IMG/VR virus record: IMGVR_UViG_3300036783_000113
Coordinates: 17,484-81,483 of that record
Strand: one strand, 5' to 3'
Origin: a virus
Lineage: Duplodnaviria; Caudoviricetes
Length of the DNA: 64,000 bases
Within the stretch, counting starts at the first letter, position 1; each line of letters opens with the position of its first letter. Position numbers and translations under genes: made by a program. The notes under the pieces are model-generated. The model made no database searches. It saw only the letters and a program-made list of their open reading frames with translations, and was not told where the DNA came from. Positions 54,911 to 61,555 of this stretch are shown here, in pieces.

Positions 54911-55007
54911 CATATTTTTTTCATTAATTTAACTATTTTATGTATTTATTTTTAAATTATTCATAAAAAGAAAGTTAAATTAGGACACTACACGGACAGA
55001 CATAATT

Positions 55008-55039
55008 TTGCAATTTACGCAATAACTATTTAATAACTA
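55008..55039 (+). promoter_or_regulatory. Promoter of the RHH gene with AATAACTA direct repeats
   Basis: TTGCAA-17-TAATAA; AATAACTA at 55021 and 55032 (11-bp period). Confidence 0.5.
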
Positions 55040-55082
55040 CTTAACAAGTGGTTGCAACCTACTTATACAGGAGGTAATAACA

Positions 55083-55379
55083 ATGGTTAAAAAGGATAAT
55101 TACATTCGTAAACCGCTTGTATTCAACAGAAAATCTGCTTGGCACATGGATTTATATGAAAGAATTGAAAATGAAAGTGAAAATTTCTCCGGTTATTGCA
55201 TGTCTATATTGAAGAATCATTTTGATAACAAGCCGAAAATTGAAAAGAAAGTTATTACTATAAAAGAAAAAGCCGAACCTCAAAAGAAAGAAGTTCGGAA
55301 AGTTAATAACTCAACAAAAGAAAAGGTAACACAAGCTGCAAACTCACCTAAAATTTTTAAAAACTTAAAACAGTCATAA
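55083..55379 (+). CDS. Ribbon-helix-helix-like regulator
   Basis: RKPLVFN beta strand, helix, NFSGYCMSIL helix, then a disordered K-rich tail. Confidence 0.6.
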   Translation: MVKKDNYIRKPLVFNRKSAWHMDLYERIENESENFSGYCMSILKNHFDNKPKIEKKVITIKEKAEPQKKEVRKVNNSTKEKVTQAANSPKIFKNLKQS

Positions 55380-55506
55380 CTGTGTGGAGTCGGTAATATA
55401 CTATTCATAAACTTTCGCTTTTAGTGAACGAAGGAGCGGAACGAAAGTTCTAGCCTAATATATCCCTAGTGAATTAATCGAACGTTATTAAGTAGTTAAT
55501 AACGAG

Positions 55507-55572
55507 TTAAAACGGTAAAGATGCGATCCACATTAAAGTAAGTCCTACACTTATTAACACCGCTTCAAACAT
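55507..55572 (-). CDS. 21-aa hydrophobic peptide
   Basis: MFEAVLISVGLTLMWIASLPF; AAAGGAG RBS 8 nt upstream; TATAAT at 55604-55609. Confidence 0.5.
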   Translation of the reverse strand: MFEAVLISVGLTLMWIASLPF

Positions 55573-55651
55573 GAAATCAACTCCTTTATAAGTTCTTGTC
55601 TATATTATATTCGCAAAACGAAAGTATAAACCATGAAAGGACTGGTAAGTT

Positions 55652-55768
55652 ATGGGTTTAGCGGCTTTTGTTACGACAAGTACGTTAATGGTCTTATGGT
55701 TTGGATTTGGATTAAAAGCTTACATCAAGAACGTTAAGGAGGATGAAAAAAATGATCGTAAAAATTAA
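55652..55768 (+). CDS. 38-aa membrane peptide
   Basis: AAAGGA RBS; one TM segment and a charged tail; overlaps the pilin-like gene. Confidence 0.55.
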   Translation: MGLAAFVTTSTLMVLWFGFGLKAYIKNVKEDEKNDRKN

Positions 55769-56231
55769 TGGTGTGGCGCAAATTCCAAGTGTGGGTTTAA
55801 AACAACGAATGAAGTTGGATAAATATGTAGAACCTGAAGTGTTAGTTAAGAAAAGAAAAGTTGATTTAAAGAAGTTAGCTGTAACGTTATGGACTACTTC
55901 AGGTATATTCTTTGCTAAACACGCTGTATTCGCTGCAACTGAAGGAGCGCAACGGATTAACTTATGGCAACAGCTGTTTCCTGTATTCGATATCTTCCAA
56001 CAGTTAGGGATGGTAATTGGAGCTTTCGCTTTAATCGCTGGTTTAAGTGTTATGTTTGTTAAAAAACGTGTTGGTATGGGGATTATAATGACTTCAGCAA
56101 TTGTAATAGCTGGTGTGTTCCTTGTTCCTTCAGCTGTAATGTTAATCGCTATAATAGGTAGCATGTTAAATGATACATTGGTTGATGTGTTCAATAATTT
56201 AAATGTGAAAGGATCGGTGAACATAAAATGA
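55752..56231 (+). CDS. VirB2/TrbC pilin-like membrane protein
   Basis: Basic leader, signal-like segment ending AVFAA, then two long hydrophobic helices; AAGGAGG RBS. Confidence 0.55.
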   Translation: MIVKINGVAQIPSVGLKQRMKLDKYVEPEVLVKKRKVDLKKLAVTLWTTSGIFFAKHAVFAATEGAQRINLWQQLFPVFDIFQQLGMVIGAFALIAGLSVMFVKKRVGMGIIMTSAIVIAGVFLVPSAVMLIAIIGSMLNDTLVDVFNNLNVKGSVNIK

Positions 56232-56380
56232 AGATGATTATAAATGTTGTTATCGGTGTAGCTTTCGGTTTCCTTATTGGTTTCCCTTTCGGTATTTCAT
56301 ATACGGTTACAGCTGCTCAAGATTCAGATATAGTAAAAGTAATTTCGAACATTAAAGCAATGTGGGAGTTCTTCCAATGA
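56228..56380 (+). CDS. 50-aa membrane protein
   Basis: MKMIINVVIGVAFGFLIGFPFG...; overlapping start/stop coupling on both sides. Confidence 0.6.
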   Translation: MKMIINVVIGVAFGFLIGFPFGISYTVTAAQDSDIVKVISNIKAMWEFFQ

Positions 56381-58785
56381 AGATTAAATTAAATGTCCCT
56401 AAATTTGAGAAGCCGATGGATCAGCCGCAAATGGTAATTCCGAAATTTCCGAAAAAAGAAGAGAGAGAATATATGCTTCCGATGGTAGTAGAAAAATCCC
56501 TGACTATCGTATCGGAAAGGGAACAACCAAAGAAACCTAAACCAAAAGCTAAATTTAAATTTGCTATAGCTCCTGCTGAATATGAAACACATCAAATAAC
56601 AGCTGTACCATCTACTAAGAATGATAAAGCTCATTTATTAATTGAATCATTCGCCAATCAAAATAAAGAGATAATTGATATTGTAAAAGGATGTAATATA
56701 GATGAAAAAGGTATTCATTTGCCACGAACAGGTAAATTCTTTTTTGAAACAGTTATTACTAATAAAGAATTTAAACAGTATATAACGTTCAATAAAGATG
56801 TTAGCGAATATGCAATACAACAAGCTGGTTTTTGTTGGCATAACTCACCGATAGTTAAACAAGAAGAATGTATATATGAAGATATAAATATTAAAAAGTC
56901 TACTGGTTATGAATATAGGTTAAAGTATACACCAGCACTCTCTTTAACTATCGATGGAAGATTACAAGAACGTCCATTACGAGATTTTCTTGAGTTAGGT
57001 AAATTACTGAAGAAGGACGAAAAGGTTATAGTTCAATTTGGTTTTATGCCTTGTGAAGAATCTTGGTTCAAGACTGGCGAAAAGTCACTTGATGAATTAC
57101 CTAAACGTATCAAGAAAGATGCTAAAGGTGACAAATTAGCTTTTAATGGCTTTGAATGTTCATTAAGGATAATTTGTATGGGGACAACGAAACAACGGTC
57201 AGAAATCATCTACAGGGGCTTTAATATGGCTGTTAGGCAATTAAATAAAGATAATGAATTGATTGGCGAAAAGATAAAGGATAAGAAGCTAGATAAATGG
57301 TTAAAACAATATGTTATAGCACGTAAAATAATTTCACCGATCCGCTTTAATAAACGTTTCATATTAACTCATAAAGAAATCACTCACTTCATTAAGTTGC
57401 CGCAACGAAACTTACAAGTGGAATATGAAGTAAAAGTTAAAGAACGAGAACAATTGACGATACCAAAAGAAATACGTGGAAAAGGTATAATGATGGGACA
57501 TTCTGAAGAAAGGAATAACAAGATACCTATATCAATACCGATGAAGAATAAAGATCACCTTGCAGCTACTTATGCGTTCGTGGGTAGTCCACGTAATGGT
57601 AAGGATATGTCATCGGCTAGGTTTATAATTGAAGCCGCTAAAAACGGTCATGGAGCTGTTATAACGGATGTGATTGATGAACAAGGTCGTGGTATGAGTG
57701 ATTTAGTGAAACAAAATTTACCTGATGATAAGGTTGTTGATATTGATTTCACTGATATAAATAACCCTATTTACTTTGGTCTTGATGATGTAATTGAATT
57801 AATCGGTAAACAAGGTAATGATATTATAGCGAATGATTTAGTTAAAATACTGGAACTTGATGATAAGTATGATTCAAAACAATTAGCGCGACTTGTGGCC
57901 AAAGTTAATAAATGTAACATATACGATATGTATTGTTTCTTGAAGTCTGATTCATTTGCTAAACAGGTATTCGAACGATTAGAAAAAGAAGATAAGTTAT
58001 TAGCGTTGCAACTTGAAAATGATTACTTTGAGAAAAATATAAGTCCGACAATAAAAGGAGCTGTATTAACTCGTTTAGATGAGATATTAGGATTTAAGTT
58101 AACTAAGAATATGTTCGCACAAAAACCAGCTATTAAACTTGATTTAGAAAAATTAATCAATCAGAATAAGGTGATTATATGCCGTATGCGTAAAATGGGT
58201 GGATTAGGTGAGCTTGGAACACGATTAATGATGAATTTACTTACATTAAAAGTGGCGTGGATCAAAAAGATTAAAAAGACGGATAATGTAACTTTTATGG
58301 CATTCAATGAATTTCACCAGTATCAGAATAAAGCATGGGATGAAATGATGTCGGATTATATGATGGAAATGCCAAAGTATCGTTTGGGCTTTGTATTGAT
58401 ATTCCATACACCTGAAAAGATTGGCCGCTTCTTATGGGACTCAATCCAATCAGCTTCAGTTAATTACTTTCTCTTTAAAAATACGAATATAAATATCTAT
58501 CGACAAATGCAAGAACAACTAAAGCCGTTTGAAATTGATATATGTATGAAGACTGAAAAATATGAAAGTATATTTGTACCATTCATTGAAGGTAAAACGC
58601 TGACACCTATATTCGTTAAGATGTCACCAGTAGATGAATTTAACACATCGTACCGCACACCACATGATTATAATTACGGCACGCCAATTGATGAAGTTGA
58701 GGATTACATTTACCAGCGCGAGATAAATATGTATGAGAAGAAAAAGAAGGATAAGAAAGATAAAAAAGAGAAGACCGATGACTAA
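56377..58785 (+). CDS. VirD4/TraG/HerA-FtsK-superfamily ATPase
   Basis: Walker A FVGSPRNGKD, AVITD, VVDID, Walker B variant AFNEFHQY, KYRLGFVLIFH; no TM segment. Confidence 0.7.
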   Translation: MKIKLNVPKFEKPMDQPQMVIPKFPKKEEREYMLPMVVEKSLTIVSEREQPKKPKPKAKFKFAIAPAEYETHQITAVPSTKNDKAHLLIESFANQNKEIIDIVKGCNIDEKGIHLPRTGKFFFETVITNKEFKQYITFNKDVSEYAIQQAGFCWHNSPIVKQEECIYEDINIKKSTGYEYRLKYTPALSLTIDGRLQERPLRDFLELGKLLKKDEKVIVQFGFMPCEESWFKTGEKSLDELPKRIKKDAKGDKLAFNGFECSLRIICMGTTKQRSEIIYRGFNMAVRQLNKDNELIGEKIKDKKLDKWLKQYVIARKIISPIRFNKRFILTHKEITHFIKLPQRNLQVEYEVKVKEREQLTIPKEIRGKGIMMGHSEERNNKIPISIPMKNKDHLAATYAFVGSPRNGKDMSSARFIIEAAKNGHGAVITDVIDEQGRGMSDLVKQNLPDDKVVDIDFTDINNPIYFGLDDVIELIGKQGNDIIANDLVKILELDDKYDSKQLARLVAKVNKCNIYDMYCFLKSDSFAKQVFERLEKEDKLLALQLENDYFEKNISPTIKGAVLTRLDEILGFKLTKNMFAQKPAIKLDLEKLINQNKVIICRMRKMGGLGELGTRLMMNLLTLKVAWIKKIKKTDNVTFMAFNEFHQYQNKAWDEMMSDYMMEMPKYRLGFVLIFHTPEKIGRFLWDSIQSASVNYFLFKNTNINIYRQMQEQLKPFEIDICMKTEKYESIFVPFIEGKTLTPIFVKMSPVDEFNTSYRTPHDYNYGTPIDEVEDYIYQREINMYEKKKKDKKDKKEKTDD

Positions 58786-58800
58786 TTTGTCAGGTCTTCT
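58769..58800. terminator. Hairpin built from two overlapping convergent stop codons
   Basis: AGAAGACC..TGAC-TAATTT-GTCA-GGTCTTCT. Confidence 0.55.
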
Positions 58801-58968: not shown

Positions 58969-59850
58969 TTATTTCAATCCTATCTTTTGATCCGCTACAT
59001 AATTATCTTCTTCAGGGTGTTTAACCCATTCTGTAGCTACATTTCCAACTTCAATTTGCTTAATTTCAGCTTTATCATTATATGCAACCACTAAATTATC
59101 ACCATATTGTTCTTTTAACGGTTCTAACTTTTCTTTCTCTCGCTGTAGTTTCTTATGTAGCCACACACAACCCTCTTTGTTTAAAACTGTCACACGGTAT
59201 TGTTTTCCGCCTTTAACAGAATCGATAATTTTAAAGTATTTCATATGACGTTGATAAGGCATGTTATAATTAACGCCTTTATTCATTAAAACTTTCATTT
59301 GGCGTAACTTTTCAAACAATGTATTTCGTCCGATATTAACTCTTCGTCCAAATTCACCGATTGAACAATGACCTTCTACATCTAACCAAGCATCGTACAT
59401 ATCAAGTTTAGGTTTTGCTTCAATAATTTTTTCGGATAACTCTTTATTTTGGACAAGTAGCAATTGTTTCTCCTGCTGCTCTTTAATCCATCGTTTAGCT
59501 CTTGCGATTGGATCATCAATCATATAAGAATTTAAATCGCGGTTCTTTAACTCTTGTTCCATTCGATTAAATTCAGTGATATACATTTCTTTAAATCGTG
59601 CTGCTTCGAACCCAATAAAACCCATTACAAGGAATGAAACACCATCGCGTTTAATTAAATATTTTTTGTTTGTTTTTCCACTAGAATCTTTGTAATCACT
59701 CAAGCCAAAGTTGGCTTCAGTAAATTTTTCGCTACATTGAAGACTTTCGATTGCTCTAATAACTTTAGAGTGTTCTTTCCCAAAAACTTCAGCCACCATT
59801 AAACTATCTGTTATTACCTCGTCATTTTCGATAAATACAATGTTATTCAT
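58969..59850 (-). CDS. rha: Rha-family regulator with KilAC/ANT domain
   Basis: TDSLMVAEVFGKEH..V.R.I, FLVMGF.G, SYMIDDPI.RA..W, IGRN.LF..LR, PYQ. Confidence 0.88.
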   Translation of the reverse strand: MNNIVFIENDEVITDSLMVAEVFGKEHSKVIRAIESLQCSEKFTEANFGLSDYKDSSGKTNKKYLIKRDGVSFLVMGFIGFEAARFKEMYITEFNRMEQELKNRDLNSYMIDDPIARAKRWIKEQQEKQLLLVQNKELSEKIIEAKPKLDMYDAWLDVEGHCSIGEFGRRVNIGRNTLFEKLRQMKVLMNKGVNYNMPYQRHMKYFKIIDSVKGGKQYRVTVLNKEGCVWLHKKLQREKEKLEPLKEQYGDNLVVAYNDKAEIKQIEVGNVATEWVKHPEEDNYVADQKIGLK

Positions 59851-60301: not shown

Positions 60302-60529
60302 ATGAATGAGAGAGTCCGTTTGTTTAAGGCAGCAAGAAAGGAAAAAGATGCCGCTTATAAAAGAACTATAGAACTTATGAATCATATGGTTGATAATGAT
60401 TTGTTTCACGACAAAAAGTTAATGGCTGAATTGCATGATGTTATGCATACGTATGACGTTATGAAATGTGTAATGAAAACATGTAGAAAGGAAGTTGATA
60501 AAAATGTTATTAGCTATAGATTCAGGTAA
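60302..60529 (+). CDS. Hypothetical protein upstream of parM
   Basis: AAGGAG RBS; overlaps parM. Confidence 0.55.
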   Translation: MNERVRLFKAARKEKDAAYKRTIELMNHMVDNDLFHDKKLMAELHDVMHTYDVMKCVMKTCRKEVDKNVISYRFR

Positions 60530-61328
60530 TTGGAATGTTAAAGTTGCATGGGAAAATGGTTTTGATATATTTGATTCATGTTTAGGTGAAGGTCGAAAAC
60601 GTAACCTTGAAAGTAAATATAATGATGAAATGATTGTTAAATACGCTGGCCAATATATGTTTGCTGGTATGTTAGCTGAATACGAATCAAACTTTCCACG
60701 CCGTTCATTTGGCCTTTCGAAAGCTCATGACGATATGAAAGTTAGAACGTTAATAGCCTGTCATCGCTATGGCAAGGGCAACACTTTAGATTTAATGGTA
60801 GGGCAACCAATTAAAAAGCACGATGATAAAAGCAAGGAAATGATAAAAGAGCTGCTATTAGGCGACCATGAAATTGAAGTTAATGGAGTTATGAAGAAAT
60901 TCACTGTAAATAGCGTTAATGTAGGGGCTGAAGGAGCTTCTGTTTACTGGACTTTAGATTCTCATGAACCAGCAATACGAATAGTTGACATAGGATCAGG
61001 AACAATAAATATAGCTACAATTCGTGACGGTTTCTTTATTGATAAGGAATCAACCACACTTCCATTCGGAACGAATAAAGCTGATAATGATGTATACAGT
61101 CTTGCTAATGCAGTCAATTCAGCTTTAACTAGTGTGTGCGATGTACGAGATAAGTTATATATTTGCGGCGGTATCGCTGATTATATTTTCCCTTTAATCA
61201 ACCAACAATATCCGAACTCACAAACTGTTATACCTAAACATTTCGCTAATGGTAAAGTTGATGAATTACCTCCACAATTTGCTAATGTTATAGGTCTATA
61301 CAATCTTGGTACAGTGATACACTCATGA
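60504..61328 (+). CDS. parM: ParM/StbA-family actin-like ATPase
   Basis: LAIDSGNWNVK (phosphate 1), EGA, IVDIGSGTIN (phosphate 2), ICGG, ANV.GLY. Confidence 0.9.
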   Translation: MLLAIDSGNWNVKVAWENGFDIFDSCLGEGRKRNLESKYNDEMIVKYAGQYMFAGMLAEYESNFPRRSFGLSKAHDDMKVRTLIACHRYGKGNTLDLMVGQPIKKHDDKSKEMIKELLLGDHEIEVNGVMKKFTVNSVNVGAEGASVYWTLDSHEPAIRIVDIGSGTINIATIRDGFFIDKESTTLPFGTNKADNDVYSLANAVNSALTSVCDVRDKLYICGGIADYIFPLINQQYPNSQTVIPKHFANGKVDELPPQFANVIGLYNLGTVIHS

Positions 61329-61555
61329 CTATGAAGATAACTATTTCATTCACTGACGAAGAGGAAGAATTGTATTTAAAAGCTTATAAACAAGATGATA
61401 AATCAAAGTATATAAAGCGTCTTATACGGCGTGATATCAGTCCGAATACAATTAGTCCTGAAGTTCTTTTAAAACCTGAAATAAGGCGAATAGAACCGTC
61501 AAAACCTATAATAAAAGAACAAAACAATAATAAAAAAGCCCTTAGCTTCATTTAG
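61325..61555 (+). CDS. parR: ParR-like ribbon-helix-helix adaptor
   Basis: KITISF strand, helix, KSKYIKRLIRRDI; ATGA-coupled to parM. Confidence 0.75.
   Translation: MTMKITISFTDEEEELYLKAYKQDDKSKYIKRLIRRDISPNTISPEVLLKPEIRRIEPSKPIIKEQNNNKKALSFI

What the first reader, a model, noticed from the sequence alone, without database searches (positions are those of the whole stretch)
55083..58785. Minimal conjugation-like module in a phage: RHH, membrane peptides, pilin-like protein and coupling-type ATPase, with no relaxase
A translationally coupled plus-strand operon inserted against the early-gene direction: 38-aa TM peptide, VirB2/TrbC-like 159 aa (AVFAA leader plus two TMs), 50-aa TM protein and an ~800-aa VirD4/TraG/HerA-like ATPase without its own TM (GSPRNGKD; NEFHQ). 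Known: related RHH-membrane-ATPase cassettes in Bacillus phages and plasmids are often followed by a replication-relaxation protein, which is absent here, as are VirB4, VirB6 and a hydrolase. Inference: a stripped-down DNA or protein translocase that moves the extrachromosomal prophage across a septum, between cells, or exploits a co-resident conjugative system. The small TM proteins may supply the anchor the ATPase lacks.
Basis: partly seen in the sequence, partly recalled or inferred. Interest (0 to 1): 0.75.

Follow-up and report, generated by a model that had tools for sequence, protein, structure and literature searches.

The report
Phage VirB2/VirB4-like membrane ATPase module
This Basilisk-like Bacillus phage carries a real, conserved, cut-down relative of the conjugation (type IV secretion) core: a DNA-binding protein, a pilin-like membrane protein, two tiny membrane peptides and a VirB4-like motor. 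The same module was already noted in phages SPP1 and SPO1, where it is dispensable in the laboratory, and its job is still unknown.

Summary
Five plus-strand genes (98, 38, 159/162, 50 and 802/807 aa) lie against the flow of their neighbours. The last three are coupled by ATGA overlaps.

The ATPase is VirB4-like, not VirD4-like:
- Its N-terminal domain, searched alone, matches only TrwK/VirB4 (Z 16.2; next hit 8.4).
- It has no TM segment.
- Family profiles sit nearer Bacillota VirB4 (96.6%) than coupling proteins (91.7%).

The 2-TM protein resembles TrbC/VirB2 pilins (hhalign up to 90.5%; reversed controls 5-10%). The "RHH" protein is a paralogue of the phage's ParR-like protein.

The module is not special to extrachromosomal prophages. 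Homologues are SPP1 genes 31-32 and SPO1 gp27.4-27.9, both from virulent phages. [quoted passage not shown] This scan also met the module on other DNA three times.

New here:
- the VirB4-type N-terminal fold;
- the pilin profile link;
- a monophyletic clade, including SPP1 gp32, with a perfectly covarying Walker swap (GKD with NE instead of GK[ST] with DE);
- restriction to phages of endospore-formers.

Function remains unproven.

The parts
55023..55047 (.). Operator-like repeat upstream of the 98-aa gene, related in inverted orientation to the palindrome at 55483-55509
   Evidence: the repeat finder I1/I5: 25-nt arms 84% complementary, 15-nt core 93%. A regulatory role is inferred, not shown.
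55083..55379 (+). 98-aa basic protein, paralogue of the ParR-like adaptor and homologue of SPP1 gp31. Presumed RHH-type DNA-binding regulator or adaptor.
   Evidence: phrog_28544. jackhmmer links it to the proteins that follow ALP in L004, L005, L017-L022 and L026-L029 and to SPP1 gp31 at E 2e-18. No Pfam or PDB sequence support for the RHH fold.
55483..55504 (.). Perfect palindrome CGTTATTAA-N4-TTAATAACG between the 98-aa gene and the membrane genes. Candidate operator.
   Evidence: the repeat finder I18; sequence read.
55652..55768 (+). 38-aa single-TM peptide
   Evidence: Conserved upstream of the pilin-like gene in 14 loci, E 7e-9 to 2e-25; weak hit to phrog_21171.
55752..56231 (+). VirB2/TrbC-like pilin-type protein: long leader, AFAA signal-peptidase site, then two TM helices joined by a KKR loop. 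159 aa from ATG 55752; 162 aa if read from 55743.
   Evidence: phrog_13699; alignment A3; weak TrbC, T4SS_pilin and DUF4134 hits in relatives; hhalign vs Bacillota TrbC 65.7% (A3) and 90.5% (wide alignment), reversed controls 5-10%.
56228..56380 (+). 50-aa protein with one TM helix and an amphipathic helix, in the VirB3 position directly before the ATPase
   Evidence: phrog_16518; conserved in 16 loci; ATGA coupling at both ends. VirB3 homology not shown.
56377..58785 (+). VirB4-like two-domain ATPase (802 aa; 807 aa from GTG 56362). Residues 1-66 disordered; VirB4-type N-terminal domain about 67-365; FtsK/HerA-class motor about 366-770 with Walker A GSPRNGKD and Walker B FNEFHQ; Lys-rich tail.
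   Evidence: AF2 models with pLDDT 82.6 and 93.6; fold searches; hhalign; motif covariation and tree; homology to SPP1 gp32 and SPO1 gp27.4.
60495..61555 (+). Linked partner system: actin-like ALP/ParM (60495-61328) and a ParR-like 76-aa protein (61325-61555). In many relatives these lie directly upstream of the module in one gene string.
   Evidence: Pfam ALP_N 5e-19; synteny in L004, L005, L017-L022, L029 and L035 and in SPO1; the window ALP matches SPO1 gp27.9 at E 2e-49.

Best explanation
The cassette is the Basilisk-clade version of a widespread accessory module of phages that infect endospore-forming Firmicutes. It corresponds to SPP1 genes 31, 31.1, 31.2 and 32 and to SPO1 genes 27.9-27.4. 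It derives from the type IV secretion core. The soluble hexamer-type ATPase has VirB4 architecture. It probably docks on the cytoplasmic membrane through the 38-aa and 50-aa TM peptides. It probably acts on the co-encoded VirB2/TrbC-like two-TM protein, as VirB4 does when it extracts and assembles pilin. The result would be a small envelope conduit or filament through which a macromolecule passes or is anchored. That macromolecule is most likely phage DNA held by the ParR-like protein and positioned by the actin-like ALP. The 98-aa ParR paralogue probably controls the operon through the flanking palindromes. The module is accessory, not needed for plaque growth, and is not a self-sufficient conjugation apparatus. 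Shown here: the genes, their coupling and conservation, the folds, the profile relationships, the synteny with ALP and the host range. Inferred: membrane docking, action on the pilin-like protein, and the cargo.
For: The ATPase N-terminal domain alone matches TrwK/VirB4 at Z 16.2 (245 of 299 residues, rmsd 3.6), with the next hit at 8.4. The nine best Foldseek hits are all TrwK. The motor domain matches VirB4 of T. pseudethanolicus at Z 27.9. Walker A and B positions and total length equal those of real Bacillota VirB4 proteins. Family profile vs VirB4 gives 96.6-96.8% (P 3-6e-10) against 91.7% (P 8e-7) for coupling proteins. For the pilin-like protein, topology is conserved, the only recurrent Pfam hits in relatives are T4SS pilin families, and hhalign reaches 90.5% against 5-10% for reversed controls. 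The gene order pilin-like, small TM, ATPase mirrors virB2-virB3-virB4 and holds down to about 22% ATPase identity. ALP and a ParR-like protein sit directly upstream in many loci and in SPO1. The GKD/NE clade is monophyletic and deep, and the pair is invariant, which argues for a working, rewired site. SPP1 gp31 and gp32 are homologous, and gp31.1 matches the wide 2-TM profile. gp32 and gp31.2 are non-essential genes of an early transcription unit (PMC6316719). A prophage actin-like system pushes phage DNA to the membrane (PMC4446434).
Against: No function has been shown for any member. Deletion or disruption in 0305phi8-36 and SPP1 gave no laboratory phenotype. This phage lacks VirB6-, VirB8- and hydrolase-type partners, a relaxase and a coupling protein, so a complete channel is hard to picture. 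The N-terminal domain shows no sequence-profile similarity to VirB4 (0.6%), and no Pfam VirB4 model is reached. The motor fold is nearly tied with DndH-C, HerA and TrwB. Distant relatives hit coupling-protein Pfam models more often than AAA_10. The Basilisk-clade alignment alone gives no hhalign signal to VirB4 or to coupling proteins (1-2%); only the wide family profile bridges. The pilin link is below Pfam thresholds, and compositional bias of TM proteins is only partly controlled. GKD/NE could instead mean altered or lost hydrolysis.
Confidence: 0.55

Rival explanations
1. Spore-entry device (a specialised form of the main reading). When the host sporulates, the ALP/ParR system brings phage DNA to the polar septum, and the VirB4-like machine holds it there or passes it into the forespore, so the phage genome rides inside the spore.
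For: All 102 phage records (window ATPase as query) and all 146 (SPO1 gp27.4 as query) are from endospore-forming host genera, bar one doubtful Microcystis label. None comes from Staphylococcus, Listeria or Enterococcus Herelleviridae, although SPO1 belongs to that family. Plasmid and genome hits are also in Bacillus, Clostridium, Alicyclobacillus and Desulfotomaculum. The link to actin-like partition proteins is conserved. A laboratory-dispensable, environment-only role fits. Earlier notes of this scan raise the same idea.
Against: No sporulation-sigma consensus was found upstream of the module here or conserved in relatives. In SPP1 the genes lie in an early transcription unit, PE5. VirB4 proteins are not known to pump DNA. 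The host restriction may only reflect the shared gene pool of Bacillus-type phages.
Confidence: 0.2
2. One reading: a VirD4/TraG-type coupling ATPase that moves the extrachromosomal prophage between cells, or feeds it to a co-resident conjugative system.
For: Distant family members hit TrwB_AAD_bind, T4SS-DNA_transf and TraG-D_C. L008 places a family member beside a true coupling protein and a Replic_Relax protein. SPO1-type phages have a Replic_Relax/relaxase-like gene directly after the ATPase (PMC3357382). This phage has ParM/ParR and a Xer-type recombinase, the plasmid-prophage hallmarks (PMC8026635).
Against: The N-terminal domain is VirB4-type and there is no TM anchor. Profiles favour VirB4 over coupling proteins. 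This genome has no relaxase. The module occurs in strictly virulent phages that have no prophage to transfer. In L008 a separate coupling protein stands beside the family member, so that member is not the coupling protein.
Confidence: 0.1
3. Membrane anchor for phage DNA replication, or an envelope-remodelling or superinfection-exclusion device, with no transport across a membrane. The ATPase and TM proteins would form a membrane platform to which ALP filaments deliver phage DNA, or which blocks entry of competing DNA.
For: AlpC/AlpA of prophage CGP3 push phage DNA to the membrane and aid replication (PMC4446434). The SPP1 genes lie in an early transcription unit. The module sits in moron-like positions next to lysis cassettes or at prophage ends.
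Against: No growth defect followed deletion in 0305phi8-36, and in SPP1 disruption showed the genes are non-essential. No PADLOC defence family matches. A signal-peptide-bearing pilin-like partner is not needed for a simple anchor.
Confidence: 0.12

Closest known systems
Bacillus phage SPP1 genes 31, 31.1, 31.2 and 32 (putative trans-membrane translocon; Godinho et al. 2018, PMC6316719); also Geobacillus phage GBK2
   Same: Same gene string: a small basic ParR-like protein, a signal-peptide + 2-TM protein, a small TM protein, and a roughly 800-aa TM-less ATPase. gp32 is 25.5% identical (E 2e-37). gp31 matches the 98-aa protein (E 2e-18) and gp31.1 matches the wide 2-TM profile (E 7e-16). gp32 shares the GKD/NE Walker pair.
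   Different: SPP1 is virulent and has no ALP/ParR or Xer genes. Its second TM protein is 105 aa with 2 TM, not 50 aa, and it has no 38-aa peptide. The published analysis covered only the C-terminus of gp32 and did not call gp31.1 pilin-like.
'DNA translocation operon' of phages 0305phi8-36 and SPO1 (gp27.9-gp27.3; Pathria et al. 2012, PMC3357382)
   Same: An actin-like protein plus small TM proteins plus a TM-less T4SS-type ATPase (SPO1 gp27.4: 22% identity, E 1e-11). The ALPs are homologous (E 2e-49). Deleting the operon in 0305phi8-36 gave no laboratory growth defect.
   Different: Those phages add a relaxase-like Replic_Relax protein (gp27.3), and 0305phi8-36 has a reported VirB6-like protein. 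Both are absent here. SPO1 gp27.4 keeps the canonical GKT/DE pair. The authors read the ATPase as a TraG-type coupling protein.
VirB2-VirB3-VirB4 core of type IV secretion systems (e.g. R388 TrwL-TrwM-TrwK)
   Same: Gene order. Pilin-type topology. A two-domain VirB4 fold (NTD Z 16.2, CTD Z 27.9). Same length and Walker spacing as Bacillota VirB4.
   Different: No VirB6, VirB8, VirB1-type hydrolase, VirD4 or relaxase. No sequence-level similarity in the N-terminal domain. Non-canonical Walker residues. Phage-borne.
Archaeal Ced DNA-import system (CedA, CedA1, CedA2, CedB). Recalled from my own knowledge, not tested here.
   Same: A cut-down T4SS relative built from a VirB4-like ATPase, a VirB2-like pilin and small membrane proteins, with no relaxase.
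   Different: Ced includes a polytopic VirB6-like CedA and is cellular, not viral. No homology test was run.

Membership tests
VirB4 (T4SS ATPase) | About 800 aa with two domains: a soluble N-terminal domain of the VirB4 fold, then the motor | tested here: met
   NTD model (pLDDT 93.6) vs 48,161 PDB chains: TrwK/VirB4 Z 16.2, 245 residues aligned, next hit 8.4. Top nine Foldseek hits are all TrwK. Full-length alignment to TrwK spans residues 69-766.
VirB4 (T4SS ATPase) | FtsK/HerA-class motor with Walker A near residue 410-450 and Walker B near 640-650 | tested here: met
   Z 27.9 to VirB4 of T. pseudethanolicus, but nearly tied with DndH-C 27.5, HerA 26.3 and TrwB 25.9. Positions match nine Bacillota VirB4 proteins.
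VirB4 (T4SS ATPase) | Sequence match to the family models (Pfam CagE_TrbE_VirB, AAA_10) or to VirB4 profiles | tested here: inconclusive
   No Pfam hit for this protein. Wide family profile vs Bacillota VirB4 gives 96.6-96.8%, against 91.7% for coupling proteins. The NTD alone gives 0.6%, and the phage clade alone 1-2%.
VirB4 (T4SS ATPase) | Canonical Walker A GxxGxGK[ST] and Walker B hhhhDE | tested here: not met
   GSPRNGKD and FNEFHQ. D415, N649 and E650 are invariant in the clade.
VirB4 (T4SS ATPase) | Encoded with other mating-pair-formation genes (VirB6, VirB8, hydrolase) | tested here: not met
   The 81.5-kb genome has no polytopic membrane protein other than the tape measure. Real T4SS loci fetched for comparison do have TrbL/VirB6, a relaxase, a coupling protein and an M23/SLT hydrolase.
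VirD4/TraG coupling protein | N-terminal transmembrane anchor | tested here: not met
   No hydrophobic segment in the ATPase here or in relatives. Residues 1-66 are disordered.
VirD4/TraG coupling protein | Match to T4SS-DNA_transf, TrwB_AAD_bind or TraG-D_C models | tested here: not met
   None for this protein or its genome. Only some distant relatives match (8, 3 and 3 of 62).
VirD4/TraG coupling protein | Cognate relaxase or oriT in the element | tested here: not met
   No Replic_Relax, MobA_MobL, Mob_Pre or SPO1 gp27.3-like protein in the genome.
TrbC/VirB2 pilin | Cleavable leader, then two hydrophobic helices joined by a short basic loop | tested here: met
   AFAA-type site, two TM helices and a KKR/KKQ loop conserved in 13 sequences.
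TrbC/VirB2 pilin | Sequence or profile match to the family | tested here: inconclusive
   Below Pfam cut-offs: TrbC best E 0.0024 in 3 of 13 members, T4SS_pilin 0.021 in 2 of 13, DUF4134 in 1 of 13, plus L008 and L035. hhalign vs 12 Bacillota TrbC proteins: 65.7% (A3) and 90.5% (wide alignment), reversed controls 5-10%.
TrbC/VirB2 pilin | Polymerises into a pilus | not testable with these tools
   Needs microscopy or biochemistry.
SPP1 gp31-gp32 / SPO1 gp27.x phage module | Homologous TM-less ATPase preceded by a ParR-like protein and small TM proteins in the same order | tested here: met
   tblastn E 2e-37 (SPP1) and 1e-11 (SPO1); annotated gene order; gp31 E 2e-18, gp31.1 E 7e-16 to the wide profile, gp27.9 E 2e-49.
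HerA-type defence ATPase | HAS-barrel N-terminal domain and a nuclease or Sir2 partner; match to defence models | tested here: not met
   PADLOC gives only a chance-level Cas3 hit at E 0.0013. The N-terminal domain is VirB4-type. No effector gene is adjacent.
Ribbon-helix-helix (ParR/Arc/CopG) for the 98-aa protein | Detectable RHH domain | tested here: inconclusive
   No Pfam or PDB sequence hit for the 15-member family. The beta-strand/helix/helix pattern (RKPVxFN ... NFSxYxKxLI) and the ParR position after ALP support it (PMC8026635).

The most novel reading that the evidence does not exclude
A virus-borne minimal descendant of the type IV secretion core (a VirB2-like pilin, TM peptides and a VirB4-like motor with a charge-swapped catalytic site) works with a phage actin-like/ParR system to carry phage DNA across a membrane without a virion. 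The crossing would be into the forespore of a sporulating host or into a neighbouring cell. That would explain how even virulent Bacillus phages persist in spores or biofilms.
Probability: 0.2. Interest if true: 0.85.

Novelty: new member of a known kind. Interest (0 to 1): 0.45.

Why it matters
The module is carried by at least about 150 sequenced phages of Bacillus and related spore-formers, including the model phages SPP1 and SPO1, and by plasmid prophages of the B. cereus group. No function has been assigned since it was first noted in 2012 and 2018. Three results sharpen the hypotheses and make them testable in SPP1 and B. subtilis. The motor has VirB4 architecture rather than a coupling-protein one. 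Its partner is pilin-like. A large clade keeps a compensated GKD/NE active site. If the module moves or anchors phage DNA at a membrane, it would be a virion-independent route of phage persistence or spread. It would also be the smallest known T4SS derivative in bacteria.

Tried and rejected
1. Pfam, NCBIfam and PADLOC scans of the five proteins gave nothing meaningful. PDB sequence searches with the ATPase alone or as a family profile also gave nothing.
2. Complex prediction of the ATPase N-terminal 365 residues with the 50-aa protein returned no verdict (score 0.00). It counts neither for nor against binding.
4. A sporulation-promoter scan used sigma-E, K, F and G consensus sequences recalled from memory. 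It covered the regions upstream of the 98-, 38- and 159-aa genes here and in relatives. It found only chance-level loose sigma-E matches in L013 and L014, and nothing in this window. The generic promoter/terminator scan was not above shuffles.
5. A prepilin peptidase (Peptidase_A24) follows the ATPase in L004 and L005 but is absent from this genome.
6. Megablast against plasmids found nothing; only the protein-level search did.
7. The RHH fold of the 98-aa family could not be confirmed by Pfam or PDB profiles.
8. The protein-atlas search gave only a sub-threshold TrbC lead (0.85).
9. One tree script was lost and was redone with FastTree.
10. The antisense 170-aa ORF at 55712-56224 was rejected as an artefact of a hydrophobic gene read backwards. 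The + strand ORF has the PHROG match and the conservation.

Full report
**What is there.** The window is part of a complete 81,483-bp virus record. Across 55000-58800 it is 84-87% identical to the Basilisk-like phages of the Bacillus cereus group: Basilisk, Bak1/6/10, BCPST, pW4 and PBC4. In those records the same genes are all annotated as hypothetical or membrane proteins.

Five plus-strand ORFs lie between minus-strand early genes and a minus-strand antirepressor. Reading the DNA refines two starts.
- The pilin-like gene most likely starts at ATG 55752 (159 aa), nine bases after AAGGAGG.
- The ATPase most likely starts at ATG 56377 (802 aa).

ATGA overlaps join the pilin-like gene to the 50-aa gene and the 50-aa gene to the ATPase. 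Each protein has its own PHROG family, all of unknown function or simply "membrane protein".

**The ATPase.** Pfam, NCBIfam, PADLOC and PDB sequence searches give nothing. An exhaustive search finds 286 cluster representatives, mostly 700-900 aa.

- The AlphaFold model (pLDDT 82.6) has a disordered 66-residue head, an alpha/beta N-terminal domain, a RecA-type motor with an inserted helical bundle, and a Lys-rich tail.
- The best full-length Foldseek matches are TrwK/VirB4 of R388 (E 5e-14).
- The motor alone cannot decide: VirB4 Z 27.9, DndH-C 27.5, HerA 26.3, TrwB 25.9.
- I refolded residues 67-365 alone (pLDDT 93.6) and searched without Foldseek. TrwK/VirB4 scores Z 16.2 with 245 residues aligned; the next hit is 8.4. 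The nine best Foldseek hits are all TrwK.
- I fetched real T4SS loci from Bacillota genomes. They carry a TrbC pilin, VirB4, TrbL/VirB6, a MobA relaxase, a coupling protein and an M23/SLT hydrolase. Their VirB4 proteins have the same length and Walker spacing as the phage ATPase.
- In matched three-sequence profile comparisons, the family is nearer VirB4 (96.6%, P 6e-10, 449 columns) than coupling proteins (91.7%, P 8e-7).
- Caveats: the N-terminal domain has no sequence-level signal (0.6%). The Basilisk-clade alignment alone gives no signal to either family (1-2%). Distant relatives touch coupling-protein Pfam models more often than AAA_10.

Conclusion: the ATPase has VirB4 architecture, not VirD4 architecture, inside the VirB4/VirD4 branch of the FtsK-HerA class.

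**An unusual active site.** Among retrieved family members, all 51 with Walker A GK-D have Walker B N-E, and all 59 with GK-S/T have D-E. None is mixed. Apparent exceptions in a looser scan were pattern-matching artefacts.

The GKD/NE set is one clade (30 of 30 tips, support 0.999) with depth of about 1.1 substitutions per site. SPP1 gp32 has GKD/NE and SPO1 gp27.4 has GKT/DE. A paired, invariant, ancient swap looks like compensation around the metal site rather than decay. This is inference.

**The small proteins.**
- The 159-aa protein and 12 relatives share a leader ending in an AFAA-type site, two TM helices and a basic loop.
- The only recurring Pfam hits, here and for the equivalent proteins of distant loci, are T4SS pilin families (TrbC, T4SS_pilin, DUF4134). 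All are below cut-off.
- hhalign against 12 genuine Bacillota TrbC pilins gives 65.7% for the close family and 90.5% (P 1.4e-6, 85 columns) for a wide alignment. Reversed controls give 5-10%.
- The 38-aa and 50-aa peptides are conserved single-TM proteins. The 50-aa protein sits in the VirB3 position, but homology was not shown.
- The 98-aa protein is a paralogue of the 76-aa ParR-like protein that follows the phage's actin-like ALP. In L004, L005, L017-L022 and L026-L029 a single such protein stands between ALP and the membrane genes.
- Its RHH fold is not confirmed by Pfam or PDB profiles.
- A perfect palindrome (55483-55504) and a related copy (55023-55047) flank its gene.

**Context and distribution.** The string (ALP, ParR-like), 2-TM protein, small TM protein, ATPase recurs in several settings:
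- phage and prophage contigs down to about 22% ATPase identity;
- positions next to lysis cassettes or at prophage ends;
- 45-100-kb plasmid prophages of the B. cereus group, and large Clostridium botulinum plasmids.

Only L008 places it beside a coupling protein and a Replic_Relax protein. tblastn then showed homologues in 102 phage records, including the virulent phages SPP1 (gene 32), SPO1 (gp27.4), CP-51, SP-10 and TP-84.

In SPO1 the order is gp27.9 (actin-like, E 2e-49 to the window ALP), gp27.8, three small TM genes, gp27.4, then gp27.3, annotated "replication initiation by nicking". SPP1 gp31 matches the 98-aa protein, and gp31.1 matches the 2-TM family.

With SPO1 gp27.4 as query, all 146 records infect endospore-forming genera except one doubtful Microcystis label. 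No Staphylococcus, Listeria or Enterococcus Herelleviridae match.

**Prior art.**
- Pathria et al. 2012 (PMC3357382) described a "DNA translocation operon" in 0305phi8-36 and SPO1: a relaxase, a TM-less TraG-like ATPase, a VirB6-like protein and an actin-like protein. Deleting it had no effect on laboratory growth, and they proposed cell-to-cell DNA movement.
- Godinho et al. 2018 (PMC6316719) reported that SPP1 gp32 is non-essential and lies in an early transcription unit (PE5). Its C-terminus resembles TrwB, VirB4 and FtsK, and it may form a translocon with gp31.1 and gp31.2.
- The Basilisk-like phage paper does not mention the module.
- This scan has met the module on other DNA three times with the same closest-known system. 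An unfollowed first-reader note on another genome also recorded GKD/NE. I reached SPP1 and SPO1 independently, before reading those notes.

**Reading.** The cassette is a T4SS-derived accessory module, not a conjugation system and not specific to plasmid prophages. The best-supported mechanism transfers what VirB4 is known to do. A membrane-docked hexameric ATPase acts on its cognate pilin-like protein to build a small conduit or filament. The conserved ALP/ParR link suggests phage DNA as the cargo or the anchored partner.

Which membrane is crossed is open. The restriction to hosts that form endospores makes forespore entry attractive. Against that, no sporulation promoters were found here, and the SPP1 genes lie in an early transcription unit.

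The complex prediction gave no verdict, and read data could not be obtained.

**Verdict.** Real and conserved, and already described informatically. Its function is unknown. The fold-level reassignment to VirB4, the pilin link and the Walker swap are useful refinements. Novelty: new member of a known kind. Interest is moderate.

Noticed in passing
window 56377-58785 (residues K414-D415, N649-E650); family-wide: Perfect covariation of Walker A GK-D with Walker B N-E (51 of 51) against GK-S/T with D-E (59 of 59). The GKD/NE set is a deep monophyletic clade that includes SPP1 gp32. It looks like a compensated rewiring of the Mg-binding site.
   Followed up: yes
L004:12777-14138 and L004:14287-14925; L005:8135-8782 and L005:10714-12042: In two distant phage-like contigs the ATPase is followed by a Peptidase_A24 (prepilin peptidase) and by a membrane protein with a 3D (cell-wall hydrolase-type) domain. 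In L004 there is also a 453-aa paralogue of the motor domain, with GKD kept but a degenerate Walker B (LNDANEY). These may be fuller versions of the machine.
   Followed up: partly
window 55023-55047 and 55483-55509: Inverted copies of a TAACTAnTTAATAAC-type motif flank the 98-aa gene. The downstream copy contains a perfect palindrome, CGTTATTAA-N4-TTAATAACG. They are candidate operators for the ParR-like protein.
   Followed up: partly
NTD model of window 56560-57456: After VirB4, the next structural matches of the N-terminal domain are components of mycobacterial ESX-3 and ESX-5 type VII secretion complexes (6lar_G Z 8.4, 7b9f_E Z 5.9). This hints at a shared domain between T4SS and T7SS ATPase assemblies.
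   Followed up: no
P0012; phage hit lists: 'Microcystis phage MaeS' (about 80 kb) carries an ATPase 53% identical to the query, like the Slash/Staley group of Bacillus megaterium phages. Its host label looks doubtful.
   Followed up: no
L082 (Clostridium botulinum plasmid pCLJ 62126-64528) and about 18 similar plasmids: Large C. botulinum plasmids carry a family member (about 24% identity) preceded by a 133-aa gene. It lies away from any obvious conjugation genes in the stretch viewed.
   Followed up: partly
window 55712-56224, minus strand: A 170-aa antisense ORF overlaps the pilin-like gene. It is an artefact of reading a hydrophobic gene backwards: it has no family match, and the conservation follows the + strand.
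   Followed up: yes
window 58969-59850 (minus strand): A Rha/KilAC antirepressor gene and two small minus-strand genes separate the module from the ALP/ParR genes. In relatives the two blocks are contiguous. This suggests an insertion that split an ancestral parM-parR-pilin-ATPase string, with duplication of the ParR-like gene.
   Followed up: partly
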